Made by a program: the position numbers and the translations under genes
The notes under the pieces: model-generated
What the model was told of the DNA's origin: nothing
The model's database searches: none
The model's input: only the letters and a program-made list of their open reading frames with translations
Shown: positions 12,882-50,566 of the stretch, one piece after another
How the letters are laid out: each line of letters starts with the position of its first letter
Position numbering within the stretch: the stretch's first letter is position 1
Assembly: GCA_964016885.1 (NCBI GenBank)
Contig: OZ024751.1
Coordinates: 41,974,001-42,038,000 of the forward strand
DNA length: 64,000 nt
Direction: 5' to 3'
Source of the DNA: Eledone cirrhosa
Taxonomy: Eukaryota

Positions 12882-13539
12882 ATAAAATATTAAACAAATA
12901 ATGAATAAACAATTCCTTATATTAAACAAAAAAAGTTCATTATTTAACGATCGTTTCTAGGATATATATGTGTTAGAATTGGTATGCATATTCAACAGAT
13001 CTATGTACAAAATTATACAAAATTATACAAATTATCAAGATTAAATATACATACCAAACACATATATACGCCGTCTTCAGAAATAATGAAGTATATTTAT
13101 TGATAATAACAACAATTCAAAATTTCAGGTCCGTTTGGGAACAAAAATTGACCAATGAAAACACAAAGGGTTAAATGCAGTTCGGTGTGAACACACCGAA
13201 CTGCAAAGGGTTAAATGCAGTTCGGTGTGAACACACCGAACTGCATTTAACCCTTTGTGTTTTCATTGGTCAATTTTTGTTCCCAAACGGACCTGAAATT
13301 TTGAATTGTTGTTATTATCAATAAATATACTTCATTATTTCTGAAGACGGCGTATATATGTGTTTGGTATGTATATTTAATCTTGATAATTTGTATAATT
13401 TTGTATAATTTTGTACATAGATCTGTTGAATATGCATACCAATTCTAACACATATATATCCTAGAAACGATCGTTAAATAATGAACTTTTTTTGTTTAAT
13501 ATAAGGAATTGTTTATTCATTATTTGTTTAATATTTTAT
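12882..13539. repeat. ~660-bp near-perfect palindrome with a hammerhead fold in each arm (Penelope pseudo-LTR-like)
   Basis: Arms are reverse complements; the centre carries a duplicated hairpin TGCAGTTCGGTGTGAACACACCGAACTGCA. Confidence 0.92.
13331..13485 (+). ncRNA. Type-I hammerhead ribozyme motif with extended stem II (mirror copy on minus strand at 12936-13090)
   Basis: TTCATTATTT-CTGAAGA-[long paired stem II]-GAAA-CGATCG-TT-AAATAATGAA; stem I is a perfect 10 bp. Confidence 0.7.
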
Positions 13540-13805
13540 ATATATATATATATATATATATATATATATATATATATATATATATATATATATATATTTA
13601 TTTATATATATATATATATTTATATATGCATATATATATATATATATATACTTATTTATATATATATATATATTTATATATGCATATATATATAGATAGA
13701 TAGATAGATAGATAGATAGATAGATAGATAGATAGATAGATAGATAGATAGATAGATAGATAGATATATAGATATATATATATATATATATATATATGCA
13801 CTCAC

Positions 13806-13860
13806 CAGATCCCTGTACTGTCCACAATAAAGATAGTAATAATATATTCTGTGGTAACAT
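13806..13860 (-). CDS. nAChR-like subunit exon 1 (signal peptide, 55 nt coding)
   Basis: ATG in aaaATG context; [19 protein letters not shown]|gtgag is a hydrophobic signal peptide with a phase-1 donor matching exon 2. Confidence 0.87.
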
Positions 13861-15561
13861 TTTATCTGTTATTGTCAAAGATCTTTACTGTTTGATACGG
13901 CCTGCAGTTATATCACGTTATTTATATATATATATAAATATATATATATATATATATATATATATATATATATATATATATATATATATATATATATATA
14001 TATATATATATATATATATATATATATATATATATATATATATATATTATATATATATATATGTTGTATGTATGTGTAGAGATATAGATATATAATATAT
14101 GTATGTATATGTATATAATGAGTGTATATATAATGTATATACATAATGTGTATATATATAATATATAACGAATATATATGAGAATATATATATAAGAATA
14201 TATATATATAAGTATATATATATATAATATATATATAATCTATTATCTCCTTAGTATCCGAAATATAAGGCCTCTTTTCTTACCGTATCAAGCGTTAAAA
14301 TAATTATAAATTTTCATTGTACTGTGTTGTTTGGTTTGTTATTTCTGTTTACTCTTTTTATTTATACATACACACACATATATATATATATACATATACA
14401 CAATTATATATATATATATATATATATATATATATATATATATATATATATATATATATATATATATAGTTATATATACACACATACAAACATACAAGAA
14501 AAGTCAACAAGGAGAAACAACACATACTACAATATATTTGTTTAACCCTCTAGTTGGAAAAAATATATTTATATATAAAAAATAGATGCATATATATATA
14601 TATATATATTTTTATATATATATATATATATATATATATATATATATATATATATATATATATATATATTAAAATAACAAATAAATATTTTGCTCTACGG
14701 TTCTTATATATTTGATATATATTTATCCTTATCGAGCCCTCTTTGGATTTTAGTCTTCAAATTTATTATTATTCCTATATATATATATATATATATATAT
14801 ATATACATATACAGATATATATATATATATATATATACATATACATATATATACATATATATATACATATATATATATACATATACATATATATATATAT
14901 ATATATATATATATATATATATATACATATATATATATATATATATATATATATATATACATATATAATATATATATATATACATATATAATATATATAT
15001 ATTTACATATATAATATATATATATATATTTACATATAAATATATATATATATATATATATATATATATATATATATATACATTATATATATATATACAT
15101 ATATAATATATATATATACATATATAATATATATATATATACATATAAATATATATATATATATATACATACATATGTATTTATATACATATATATATAT
15201 ATATATACATATATATACATATATATATATATATATACATATATATATATATATATACATATATATATATATATATACATATATATATACATATACGTAT
15301 ATATATATATACACACACACACATAGATACATACATATATATATATATATAGATATATATTTGTATATATATATATATATATATATATATATATATGTAT
15401 GTATCTGTATATATATATATACACACCCACATAGATACATACATATATATATATATATATATATATATATATACTGTATATATATTTATATATAATTTCT
15501 ATACTTTTGATTTATATATATATATATATATATACACATAGATACATACATATATATATAT

Positions 15562-16738
15562 AAAGTGGTTGCGTAACAATTATTTGATAAGTGGTCATCA
15601 GACAGGTATTAAGGTGAAATATATTTTAATCTCTATATGCTTCTCATATCTTAACAAAGTCACAAGGTTATATTATTCACGTATGACAATTGATTTGATA
15701 TCGATTGATAAATACGACAGAAAATGCTTTCGATCCATGTTTGGACATAAACACATTTTACGGGCATAAATAATAAATAGATAATTAAATAAGAACTTAA
15801 TCAAGACGAGCCATGCTCGTCCATCGAGTGACAACAAACATATATATATATGTGTATGAAATGTTAAGACTCTCTTCCTGCTATATCAAGCGTTAATCTA
15901 ATATATCCCTTCCATATACTGTACCGATTGTGTTGTTATTTCTGTTTACCTTTTACACACACACACACACATACATATACATATATATATATATATATAT
16001 ATATACATATATATACATATATATATATATTCATATGTGAGTTATTATACGTTGTGTATTGAACATTTTGTAAATAGAATTAGATGCTTTCTCTATAGAC
16101 AATACTCTAAAAGCGTCTAATTCTATTTACATTATATATATATGCAACCGGTACTAGCAAGGAAACCTTACGCTAGTCCCATTAAACTCTTATATATATA
16201 TATATATATATATATATATATATATATATATGTATGTGTGTGTGTGTGTGTGTGTGTGTGTGTGTGTGTGTGTGTGCATGTGTGTGCGTGTGCGTGTGCG
16301 TGTGCGTGTGCGTGTGCGTGTGCGTGTGTGTGTGTGTGTGTGTGTAAAAGGTAAACAGAAATAACAACACAATCGGTACAGTATATGGAAGGGATATATT
16401 AGATTAACGCTTGATATAGCAGGAAGAGAGTCTTAACATTTCATACACATATATATATATGTTTGTTGTCACTCGATGGACGAGCATGGCTCGTCTTGAT
16501 TAAGTTCTTATTTAATTATCTATTTATTATTTATGCCCGTAAAATGTGTTTATGTCCAAACATGGATCGAAAGCTTTTTCTGTCGTATTTATCAATCGAT
16601 ATCAAATCAATTGTCATACGTGAATAATATAACCTTGTGACTTTGTTAAGATATGAGAAGCATATAGAGATTAAAATATATTTCACCTTAGTACCTGTCT
16701 GATGACAACTTATCAAATAATTGTTACGCAACCACTTT
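15562..16738. repeat. ~400-bp inverted repeat pair (15562-~15965 / ~16340-16738)
   Basis: The same pseudo-ORF appears on opposite strands (15569+ and 16531-). The right arm extends into a degenerate hammerhead at 16694-16764. Confidence 0.92.
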
Positions 16739-17879
16739 GATTTCTTCGAAGTGCGCATAACAGGATTATATAATCAACAGAGGATGTATACATAAACCCT
16801 CTCTTTTATTTATAATATTGACACTCCGTCTGATACCATATAGATAATGTGTGTGTGTGTGTGTGTGTGTGTATCTTCGTATTAAGTCCTTTCATCAATT
16901 ATATTTCAGAAATTTCTGTTATGTTCTAAATATCAATCTTACTAATGGAAAAACTAAGTTATTGTATTAAATTCTTCCAAATGTTTGATTATTTTCAAAA
17001 TTAATTGAAACACATCGGCGACTTATTTTATTAGAAATACGGTAATGAGGAGGTTAAAGTCTTCTTCGGGGATTCTACAACAGCAAGAAATGCAAATTGA
17101 AATCATTCTTCCTTAAGCAATGAAGATGGATAATGATTTGTGATTTGTCGATTTACGAGTTTCATCGCCTATTGTTATTCGGAAATTATTTTCATTTAAA
17201 TTTAATTTATTTTAATGATAACTAAACTTAAAAGTGTTGTTTTTTTTTTTGTTATTGAATCTCTTGAGTTGGAAAATGATAGGCTGTTATTAAACTAGAA
17301 AAATAACTTCGTTTTATAGATCTTTGCAGCCTAATAAATCATCAAGTCCATACATTTTCTTATTCGATTACGCAGTATGGAAAAACTAATAGGGTGGATA
17401 TTAATAAGAAGAGATGTCAGTTGTCTTTAGGAATCGGAAAAGTGGGGTCAAGAATCGGATGAGTCCGGGGCCAGATTAAATCCTTCTGAGACCCTAAATA
17501 CTTAAAAAATTATGGTGCTCATCTTTTCATATATGCATTCATGCATGGTCCCGAACCTCCCGGGGAAGTCGTAGGGTCGCCGTATTAATTTACGGTAAAT
17601 GTTGAAAATATGATAACAATGATGTTGGGATGTAACCTTGCAGTTTTTTTATAGGTCCTTATATTTCGGGATAAAAATCCCTTCATCAAAAGGTTAATAG
17701 AAGAAACTAGTTCGGAGTTGTATATATTTTTAGCCACTCTAAACTAAAATTTTGTTGGTATTTTTTTTATATTTACTGTCCAATTCACATAGTGGTAACT
17801 TCCAAATAAAACCCTATTTTCTACACTTCACAAAATGCTTCATGAAAACTACAACAGCCTCGAATTTAAACAAAATTCT

Positions 17880-49899: not shown

Positions 49900-50041
49900 A
49901 AGTAGTTCAACAACAGTCAGTTCATCATTACCGAGAACAATTGCTTCACCTTATTCACATCATCAGCTCGGTCTAAATGATCCAAATAAAATGAAACAAT
50001 TGTTCTCGTTAATGGTGAATTAACTGTTGTAGAACTACTTC
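49900..50041. repeat. Imperfect inverted repeat with degenerate hammerhead (49930-49972, minus)
   Basis: ACCGAG-CTGATGA-...-GAAG-CAATTG-TT-CTCGGT. Confidence 0.65.
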
Positions 50042-50325
50042 TACCAAACTCATCCCATATATATATATATATACACTAATTTAAAGTATCATAATATAAA
50101 GTATCATATATATATGTATGATGAATATGTTTCTCAATGAAAAAGCTGAATGGACTTTTGTAATATATGTATAAAGCCATATATCAATTAGAGAAAATAT
50201 ATAGTATTTTATACATATATATATATATATACATAGTGTGTGTGTGTGTTAGGTATTTCTGAAGAAAAAGCAAAGCAAAAAAGAATGCTCTTTGTATAGA
50301 ACAGAGCTATTTAATTTAATAACCT

Positions 50326-50393
50326 CTCTGTCTGATGAACAATCTAGATATATGTTAATATTGTCTAGGGCCCTGAAACCTTTGGTAATGGAG
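50326..50393 (+). ncRNA. Hammerhead-like motif
   Basis: CTCTGT-CTGATGA-..CTAGATA...TGTCTAG..-GAAA-CC ttt GG-TA-ATGGAG. Confidence 0.5.
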
Positions 50394-50449
50394 TAGTTAT
50401 ATATTGTGTTGTTCAGTTTATAATAAAAAAAAAATATATATATATATAT

Positions 50450-50566
50450 ATAGGAACAAGTATGACCCCGACGGCAGAGCTCAAGCCGTTTCGACGGCTA
50501 ATTCGTCCAGAATTAGCCGTCGAAACGGCTTGAGCTCTGCTGTCGGGGGGTCATACTTGTTCCTAT
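50450..50566. repeat. GC-rich palindrome (~55-bp arms)
   Basis: ...GAGCTCAAGCCGTTTCGACGGCTAATTC gtcca GAATTAGCCGTCGAAACGGCTTGAGCTC... Confidence 0.9.

What the first reader, a model, noticed from the sequence alone, without database searches (positions are those of the whole stretch)
12882..50566. Recurrent architecture: long palindromes whose arms are Penelope-type hammerhead ribozymes, at least six unrelated sequence families in 40 kb
Seen: inverted repeats at 12.9-13.5, 15.6-16.7, 19.4-19.7, 30.6-30.7, 34.8-35.0, 45.7-46.0 and 49.9-50.0 kb share little primary sequence. Yet each contains stem I-C(U/C)GANGA-stem II-GAA(A/G)-short, mostly palindromic stem III (CGATCG, TGCGCA, TATATA, CAATTG, TATGTA)-UH-stem I', and nearly all sit next to (TA)n. 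Established: Penelope-like element pseudo-LTRs carry minimal type-I hammerheads with palindromic stem III thought to act as dimers, and often insert as inverted partial duplications; a Penelope GIY-YIG ORF lies at 1386-2335. Inference: a dense population of ORF-less, ribozyme-bearing fold-back PLE derivatives favouring TA microsatellites, and an abundant source of intronic dsRNA in an animal group known for heavy A-to-I editing.
Basis: partly seen in the sequence, partly recalled or inferred. Interest (0 to 1): 0.75.

Follow-up and report, generated by a model that had tools for sequence, protein, structure and literature searches.

The report
Mirror-image ends of Hydra Penelope retrotransposons
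The mirror-image sequences and their self-cutting-RNA motifs are real and are the truncated, back-to-back 3' ends of several families of one known group of jumping genes, likely inserted into TA repeats by that group's own enzyme, so the layout is an ordinary footprint and not a new RNA device.

Summary
All seven palindromes exist. A relaxed hammerhead scan finds 11 motifs in the window against 0.09 in shuffles; 10 lie in the palindromes and all 11 have (TA)n close downstream. Each palindrome belongs to a dispersed family, and five (12.9, 16.7, 19.4, 30.6, 34.8 kb), plus the ribozyme-less one at 50.5 kb, run upstream into RT-endonuclease ORFs of the Hydra clade of Penelope-like elements. The 12.9-kb arm is 100% identical to the end of an intact 7.2-kb element. 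So most are 5'-truncated head-to-head insertions of autonomous families, not ORF-less lineages. Inverted copy, one-sided tail, (TA)n target and hammerhead are all published for this clade. Corrections: 19.4 and 45.7 kb are related (73%); only four palindromes have two complete motifs; the ORF at 1386-2362 is another clade; only the 45.7-50.5-kb copies are shown to be intronic; fold-back would bury the ribozyme. Modestly new: a large young Hydra radiation, a strict one-tail/one-no-tail rule suggesting twin priming on one RNA, and 5' ends piling up at predicted transcription starts. No RNA data. The scan noted the same footprint before on other DNA.

The parts
12748..13533 (-). Family D: 5'-truncated head-to-head insertion of a young intact 7.2-kb Hydra-clade element; tail 12748-12887 on the left arm only; hammerhead motifs 12936-13090 (-) and 13331-13485 (+), stem II 116 nt
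   Evidence: arm 100% identical to the pLTR of ORF-bearing copies L071-L074; 40 of 40 scored matches at 100%; motifs
15563..16845 (+). Family E: 391-bp arms 15563-15953 and 16347-16737 around a microsatellite spacer; one complete but degenerate hammerhead 16694-16764; inner part of the arms is a piece of another repeat; atypical
   Evidence: (other copies 73-88%, 3' part only); Hydra-like ORF 575 nt upstream of a relative in L177; read contig
19307..19704 (-). Family A: head-to-head insertion, tail 19307-19399 on the left arm; hammerheads 19440-19504 (-) and 19600-19664 (+)
   Evidence: CxCx5C linker and endonuclease 1.7 kb upstream in L077
30497..30699 (-). Family C: 200-bp head-to-head insertion, tail 30497-30562; hammerheads 30578-30630 (-) and 30632-30684 (+); both arms start at stem I with a G that is not in long copies
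   Evidence: long copies run into Hydra ORFs
34607..34973 (-). Family B: head-to-head insertion, tail 34607-34746; hammerheads 34791-34837 (-) and 34888-34934 (+)
   Evidence: 94% continuity over 2.5 kb into the ORF between L129 and L127
45685..46058 (+). Family A' (73% to A): complete hammerhead 45896-45964 on the right arm, broken on the left; in a ric-3 intron
   Evidence: no ORF link found
49897..50057 (-). Family F: older short palindrome; hammerhead 49930-49972 (-) with GAAG, other arm decayed; in ric-3 intron 1
   Evidence: no ORF link found
50454..50644 (+). Family G: head-to-head insertion with tail and no CUGANGA core; in ric-3 intron 1
   Evidence: follows a Hydra ORF in L195
5258..5364 (+). 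Solo, non-palindromic relative of family B (83%) with a well-paired hammerhead at 5281-5327, ending in (TA)n
1386..2362 (-). 5'-truncated, frameshifted RT-thumb plus GIY-YIG fragment of a different (Penelope/Poseidon-type) element; not the partner of the palindromes
   Evidence: PF01541 E 2e-7; 53-62% to the DKG element in L200, 25-31% to the Hydra ORFs
44008..48770 (-). ric-3 coding exons (about 44008-44454, 44832-45178, 47014-47220, 47676-47820, 48696-48770); first coding exon about 1 kb beyond the window's right end
   Evidence: PF15361 E 1.8e-10 on the 47.7-kb exon; other exons read by eye; candidate exon 1 in L322

Best explanation
The palindromes are 5'-truncated, head-to-head insertions of the 3' ends (pseudo-LTRs) of several Hydra-clade Penelope-like retrotransposon families, likely made when the element's endonuclease cuts both strands of a (TA)n tract and two reverse transcriptions start at two fixed sites on the element RNA. 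Shown: family membership, ORF linkage, arm geometry, (TA)n abutment, hammerhead motif in the pLTR. Inferred: one cDNA starts at the distal site (arm with tail), the other at the proximal site (arm without), probably on the same RNA molecule; both run towards the RNA 5' end and are joined there. When the template is short or copying stops early only the pLTR is inserted, giving a 150-800-bp palindrome; longer copying gives arms 5-10 kb apart around the ORF. The hammerhead is a passenger, useful in tandem full-length elements; in a read-through transcript of a palindrome it is predicted to be locked in the long hairpin. In families A, C, D and F many arms stop at a predicted transcription start (inferred, about 55%).
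For: Intact 830-codon frame with RWR, DKT, CxCx5C, CxxC, CxH and no CCHH in L071 and L075, tandem unit 7.2 kb, matching the Hydra definition. ORFs upstream of B, C, G, A, E pLTRs carry the same motifs where preserved and are 43-54% identical to each other. Tail-query samples (30 best loci each): inverted arm in 22 of 30 A, 11 of 30 D, 20 of 30 F, about 10 of 30 B (after dropping TA-only matches from the script's 18), and 23 of 40 scored C places. The inverted arm lacks the tail in 21 of 22 A, 11 of 11 D and 20 of 20 F; in a core-query sample all 12 palindromic A loci pair one tailed with one tail-less arm. Tail ends abut (TA)n in 26, 23, 30, 26, 28 of 30 for A, B, C, D, F. T.T or similar mismatch at the base of stem II is in the published Hydra table. 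In vitro, a Poseidon protein cuts and extends both strands from two internal sites and does not need hammerhead cleavage. Folding pairs the core with the opposite arm in every fold that has a core (11 of 14 folds).
Against: Families F and A' have no ORF link in the loci fetched; A and E rest on one ORF-bearing locus each. Family E does not fit: arms 99% alike while other copies are 73-88%, left arm ending inside stem II, and one read contig carries left-arm alleles into the right-arm flank at single-copy-like depth. Family B shows no 5' pile-up. The extra G seen in C (9 of 9) is not general (A 1 of 5, D 2 of 5) and stem I snap-back would also give it. Clade was assigned by motifs, not by a tree with reference sequences. 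Samples are the best-scoring 30-40 of 325-2734 candidates, so young copies are favoured. No cleavage or RNA data.
Confidence: 0.88

Rival explanations
1. The short palindromes are self-propagating non-autonomous families (MITE- or SINE-like fold-back elements), each copied as a palindromic unit from an ORF-less master.
For: Most C and F copies are short and palindromic with similar centres; all 30 F tail-query copies end within about 110 nt of the core; no ORF found for F or A'.
Against: Junctions differ from copy to copy, many copies have no inverted arm, and long copies of A, B, C, D, G continue into ORFs. Short C copies lack the upstream TATA box.
Confidence: 0.07
2. 5' ends pile up because reverse transcription stalls or snaps back at hammerhead stem I, not because the RNA begins there; the rest of the model is unchanged.
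For: In C, D and F the pile-up coincides with the 5' strand of stem I, and the extra G in C is also the next base a stem I snap-back would copy.
Against: In A the limit lies about 70 nt upstream of stem I at a TCACT initiator-like site (17 of 22 inverted arms at -68 to -82, none beyond); C has TATAAATA starting 30 nt upstream and a CCAAT box; G has no hammerhead yet a TATA-like box 29 nt upstream of where several copies start.
Confidence: 0.35
3. The palindromes are assembly fold-back artefacts or DNA-level inverted duplications unrelated to retrotransposition.
For: Family E fits this best: near-identical arms of an old, chimeric sequence, and a single read contig. D arms are nearly identical.
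Against: Arms differ by 5-22% in A, B, A', F, G; flanks are not duplicated; the inverted arm ends at one family-specific site at dozens of loci.
Confidence: 0.03
4. The palindromes are a host-selected RNA device (ribozyme switch or editing substrate).
For: Three lie in ric-3 introns and would fold into hairpins of -62 to -213 kcal/mol; octopus has unusually high hyper-editing and dsRNA potential.
Against: Insertions are young, dispersed and decaying (one arm broken in A', E, F); the core is predicted to be buried; no conservation or expression shown.
Confidence: 0.02

Closest known systems
Hydra clade of Penelope-like elements (Craig et al. 2021, PMC8557442; seen: passages, sections 11 and 20, supplement part 2 with the Hydra sheet of File S1 and File S2), including Hydra-1_Obim and Penelope-13_HM
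   Same: RWK-like, DKT, CxCx5C, CxxC, CxH, no CCHH; (TA)n target; hammerhead near the 3' end, often with T.T at the base of stem II; inverted 5'-truncated copy and one-sided tail (described for PLEs generally; inverted copy listed for Penelope-13_HM).
   Different: The paper lists one octopus family (2507 bp, 4 copies ending at one site) and elements mostly under 3 kb. Here at least six ORF-linked families, hundreds to thousands of candidates each, tails of about 45-140 nt rather than 30-40, a 7.2-kb unit with a 4-kb microsatellite-rich 3' UTR, a 116-nt stem II, and one family with no hammerhead core.
[quoted passage not shown]
   Same: Short palindromic helix III; mostly solitary motifs from truncated PLEs; that paper already reports dual motifs 100-700 bp apart on opposite strands.
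   Different: The G10.1-C11.1 pair that it calls highly conserved is rare here (GC in 11 of 111 flank motifs).
Poseidon element PAc of Anolis (Frangieh et al. 2024, PMC11167929; seen: parts 1-2 of 4)
   Same: Both strands cut and extended; two internal initiation sites bracket the tail; hammerhead cleavage not needed for insertion.
   Different: Different clade; no strand difference in start site was seen in vitro, whereas genomic pairs here are almost always one tailed plus one tail-less arm.
Non-LTR retrozymes (PMC7229834, passages; bioRxiv 10.64898/2026.07.22.740005, part 1 of 5 and passages)
   Same: Type I hammerhead, non-coding, PLE-related.
   Different: Retrozymes are tandem arrays without an ORF; the window's palindromes have one motif per strand and mostly trace to ORF-bearing families. 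A true 311-bp array lies just left of the window.

Membership tests
Hydra-clade PLE | Single ORF, RT then C-terminal GIY-YIG-type endonuclease | tested here: met
   830-codon frame in L071/L075 with YRDD and YIG; Pfam does not recognise it, only a weak GIY-YIG hit on the C ORF
Hydra-clade PLE | RWK motif and DKG changed to DKT | tested here: met
   D: RVRWRA and SDKT; B and C: DKT; not preserved in the A, E, G fragments
Hydra-clade PLE | CxCx5C linker; CxxC and CxH around E and N; no CCHH | tested here: met
   CxCx5C in D, B, C, G, A; CxxC in D, B, C, G, E; CxH in all six; no cysteine pair before YIG
Hydra-clade PLE | Insertion into (TA)n | tested here: met
   23-30 of 30 tail ends per family abut (TA)n
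Hydra-clade PLE | Placement in the Hydra clade of an RT tree | not tested
   no reference PLE sequences were held; 120 unnamed homologues found
Hydra-clade PLE | Canonical hammerhead near the 3' end | tested here: met
   A, A', B, C, D, F met, E degenerate; G has no core
PLE insertion anatomy | Inverted 5'-truncated copy and one-sided tail | tested here: met
   E does not conform
Minimal type I hammerhead | CUGANGA, GAAA, UH, stems I and II, palindromic stem III | tested here: met
   11 motifs versus 0.09; core intact in 20 of 26 A, 19 of 22 B, 20 of 24 F copies reaching it
Minimal type I hammerhead | G10.1-C11.1 pair | tested here: not met
   window motifs have A-T, C.A, T.T, C.C; T.T also in published Hydra motifs
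Minimal type I hammerhead | Self-cleavage (as dimer or protein-assisted) | not testable with these tools
   monomer folds do not give the hammerhead fold for most arms
Non-LTR retrozyme | Tandem ORF-less units each with a hammerhead | tested here: not met
   one motif per strand in each palindrome; met by the separate array in L325/L326
MITE / fold-back DNA element | Symmetric terminal inverted repeats with fixed structure | tested here: not met
   asymmetric ends, variable junctions, many solo arms
Penelope/Poseidon clade (ORF at 1386-2362) | DKG, CCHH, no Zn-finger linker | tested here: inconclusive
   fragment has CxxC before YIG and is 53-62% identical to a DKG element in L200; DKG region missing in the window

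The most novel reading that the evidence does not exclude
Hydra elements have radiated massively in this genome, and their pLTR promoters fire short capped RNAs that are twin-primed into (TA)n, so every short insertion is a ready-made perfect hairpin whose centre marks the transcription start. Tens of thousands of such hairpins, many in introns, would be a main source of the double-stranded RNA behind cephalopod hyper-editing, and the insertions themselves would record how one PLE RNA is copied from two sites.
Probability: 0.3. Interest if true: 0.6.

Novelty: new member of a known kind. Interest (0 to 1): 0.3.

Why it matters
As an architecture it is known. Its value is practical: repeat annotation would likely file these short palindromes as MITEs or unknown repeats although they are PLE ends; an intact, very young Hydra element is a candidate for in vitro work on a clade with no biochemistry in the papers read; the one-tail/one-no-tail rule and the 5' pile-ups give testable predictions about PLE integration; and if transcribed, the hairpins would be good ADAR substrates.

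Tried and rejected
The repeat finder was swamped by (TA)n. Rfam found no hammerhead, only miRNA-type hairpin matches below gathering score. The strict descriptor missed 8 of the 11 motifs because of the stem II base mismatch. My first idea that the clade was Neptune was dropped on motifs. An intron-end explanation for the C 5' end was considered; no matching donor was seen in the tail (by eye). Cap-derived G as a general rule: not supported outside C. A-to-I scars in copies: slight sense A>G excess in A, B, D (p 0.02-0.04), none in C and F, opposite in G, pooled p 0.043, copies not independent: inconclusive. No RNA holder listed for family D. Reads on the left E junction were uninformative because repeats were skipped. 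The 5' exons of the Cys-loop receptor gene at 1-3.3 kb were not located. No ORF for F or A' in fetched loci. Lunse et al. 2017 on hammerhead variants could not be read (reference listing only). Supplements of the bioRxiv preprint and supplementary figures of Craig et al. were not seen and may describe the tail asymmetry or octopus families.
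Full report
Setting. The window is G000:C11:41974001-42038000 of a 3.0-Gb animal assembly. It holds part of a Cys-loop receptor gene at the left, most of ric-3 at the right and many repeats.

Observation. After masking microsatellites, self-BLAST recovers all seven palindromes and an eighth at 50454-50562. 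A strict hammerhead descriptor finds 3 motifs. Allowing unpaired bases at the foot of stem II and a long stem II gives 11, against a mean of 0.09 in 100 block shuffles. That descriptor was tuned on these motifs; on 40 kb of neighbouring DNA it finds 22 against 0.06, though 20 are one tandem array. Ten of the 11 lie in palindromes, and 11 of 11 have (TA)5 within 320 nt downstream against 30% of random positions. Only D (12.9 kb), A (19.4), C (30.6) and B (34.8) have two complete motifs. A' (45.7) and F (49.9) have one, E (15.6/16.7) has one degenerate motif that fails the scan, and G (50.5) has none. A and A' align at 73%.

What they are. Each tested arm is a dispersed repeat: first-look candidates number 1479 (A), 854 (D), 325 (E), 1673 (B), 1109 (C) and 2433 (F); these are not copy numbers, and 40 were scored each time. 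For D all 40 scored matches are 100% identical, many as inverted pairs 5-10 kb apart or tandems of 7.2 kb. Of five such regions fetched, two hold an intact 830-codon frame, two a 5'-truncated one and one only the last 81 codons. The protein has RWR, DKT, a CxCx5C linker, CxxC and CxH motifs and no CCHH, which are the diagnostic features of the Hydra clade (PMC8557442 section 11). B continues at 94% over 2.5 kb into a related ORF between L129 and L127, with partial ORFs in L119, L122 and L125, out of 12 extended loci. C continues through a TA/TG-rich 3' UTR into an ORF (L194, L199, L200, L201). G follows an ORF in L195, A in L077, and an E relative in L177. These ORFs are 43-54% identical to each other. 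F and A' found no ORF in the loci held. The window's own ORF at 1386-2362 is frameshifted, 25-31% identical to the Hydra ORFs and 53-62% to a DKG-type element in L200; it is not the helper.

Geometry. With queries taken from the tail, so that the 5' side is unselected, an inverted arm is present in 22 of 30 A loci, 11 of 30 D within 1.5 kb, 20 of 30 F, about 10 of 30 B once TA-only matches are dropped from the script's 18 and 23 of 40 scored C places. The arms meet at their 5' ends with variable junctions and face (TA)n with their 3' ends (23-30 of 30 per family; four D exceptions are internal pLTRs of tandems). The inverted arm stops at a proximal site and lacks the tail: +95 to +106 against +191 in 21 of 22 A, +198 against +335 in 11 of 11 D, +65 to +70 in 19 of 20 F. 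In the core-query sample of A, all 12 distinct palindromic loci pair a tailed with a tail-less arm, while solo copies are 10 tailed and 4 not. This matches the published PLE layout of an inverted 5'-truncated copy and a one-sided tail and the in vitro finding that a Poseidon protein cuts and extends both strands from two internal sites. The strict pairing suggests, by inference, two primings on one RNA.

5' ends. In A, 17 of 22 inverted arms start at -68 to -82 from the core and none further; 28 of 30 sense arms start within 86 nt; the limit is a TCACT initiator-like site about 70 nt before stem I. In C, 17 of 31 measurable arms end at -5 or -6, and all 9 ending at -6 have G where long copies have C; long copies have TATAAATA starting 30 nt upstream and a CCAAT box. 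In D, 13 of 30 sense arms run over 1.3 kb and 9 start at -2 to -35, peaking at TC-ATT. F is similar and looser. B shows no pile-up. An extra G marks full-length capped L1 insertions (PMC11702581, passage) and Drosophila Penelope starts transcription inside its pLTR (PMC2377424, passages). But the G is not general here and stem I snap-back predicts it as well, so I give the transcription-start reading about 55%.

The ribozyme. The core is intact in 20 of 26 A, 19 of 22 B and 20 of 24 F copies that reach it. The canonical G-C pair at the base of stem II is mostly replaced; T.T is in the published Hydra table, so this is a clade trait. Each strand of a palindrome carries one sense motif, and folding pairs its core with the opposite arm in all 11 of 14 folds that contain a core. 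The palindrome is therefore predicted to silence the ribozyme, not to provide a dimer partner. Activity was not tested.

The exception. E's arms are 99% alike while other copies are 73-88% and match only the 3' part; the left arm stops inside stem II. In three runs of one sample a single contig covers 16413-16838 with the left arm's three variants and the right arm's flank, at a depth like another unique contig; the left junction could not be read. E may be a DNA-level duplication, a polymorphism or an assembly error.

Introns and editing. A', F and G lie between ric-3 coding exons, the first of which appears about 1 kb right of the window. For D, E, A, C and B no enclosing gene was established. 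No RNA run was listed, and A>G asymmetry among copies is mixed. High dsRNA potential and hyper-editing in O. bimaculoides, and heavy editing of lizard Penelope and of a palindromic frog repeat, are published (PMC5625713, passages), so the link is plausible and unshown.

What is known. Dual hammerheads 100-700 bp apart on opposite strands from truncated PLEs were reported in 2014. Hydra elements with (TA)n targets, hammerheads, an inverted copy, and one octopus family are in Craig et al.. An O. vulgaris annotation lists 31 recently active Penelope-like families and does not mention ribozymes or palindromes in its main text (PMC13282606, passages). Seven literature searches showed no paper on a Hydra radiation in octopus, on the tail-pairing rule or on 5' ends at the pLTR start; the library lacks many journals. 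The scan's earlier notes report the same footprint in another genome and many two-armed retrozymes in this one.

Verdict. A real and statistically solid pattern, explained as the standard insertion footprint of several new families of a known clade. Interest 0.3.

Noticed in passing
L326:9100-10000 and L325:1-6050 (4-11 kb left of the window): A 311-bp hammerhead tandem array: (TA)n, 5 motifs on the minus strand, a head-to-head junction, 17 on the plus strand, (TA)n. Units are nearly identical, the outer ends differ by about 35 nt, and 98% copies occur in L092, L129 and L257. This is a true ORF-less retrozyme with the PLE footprint; the scan has noted the family before.
   Followed up: partly
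window 19740-20064 (also 14680-14773): Another inverted repeat with a one-sided tail between (TA)n tracts and no hammerhead core; recurs in L004, L026, L029. Probably a further PLE end.
   Followed up: no
window 20150-20211 (-) and 32870-32924 (-): Hammerhead cores with stems II and III but poor stem I, outside palindromes; 40061 (-) and 52169 (+) look like more decayed relatives.
   Followed up: no
tails of A, A', B, C, D, F, G: A shared motif like TGAGYRCTCT/TTGAGYW sits in every tail, between the two initiation sites or just before the ORF start; it may be a protein-binding or priming signal.
   Followed up: no
L071:1300-5460; L194, L195: The 3' UTRs of D and C are 2.5-4 kb and largely TA/TG/CA microsatellite, so these elements spread their own target sequence; L195 shows a C copy and a G copy nested in each other's (TA)n.
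   Followed up: partly
window 5971-11297 (-), 23677-25259 (+), 47869-48348 (+): A LINE with ORF1, endonuclease and RT frames (PF00078 E 5.6e-26), an RTE-like RT fragment, and a LINE 3' fragment inside a ric-3 intron.
   Followed up: no
window 1-510 and about 3183-3300 (-): Exons of a divergent Cys-loop receptor (PF02931 E 2.3e-10; PDB matches include nicotinic subunits and an octopus sensory receptor); 5' exons not found.
   Followed up: partly
window 37553-38069 and 39092-39605: A 517-bp direct duplication at 99.4% identity.
   Followed up: no
window 35956-36141, 38500, 40800, 45385, 46254, 52207, 54826, 62840 and others: An abundant 190-bp SINE-like repeat in both orientations, a second likely source of intramolecular dsRNA.
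   Followed up: no
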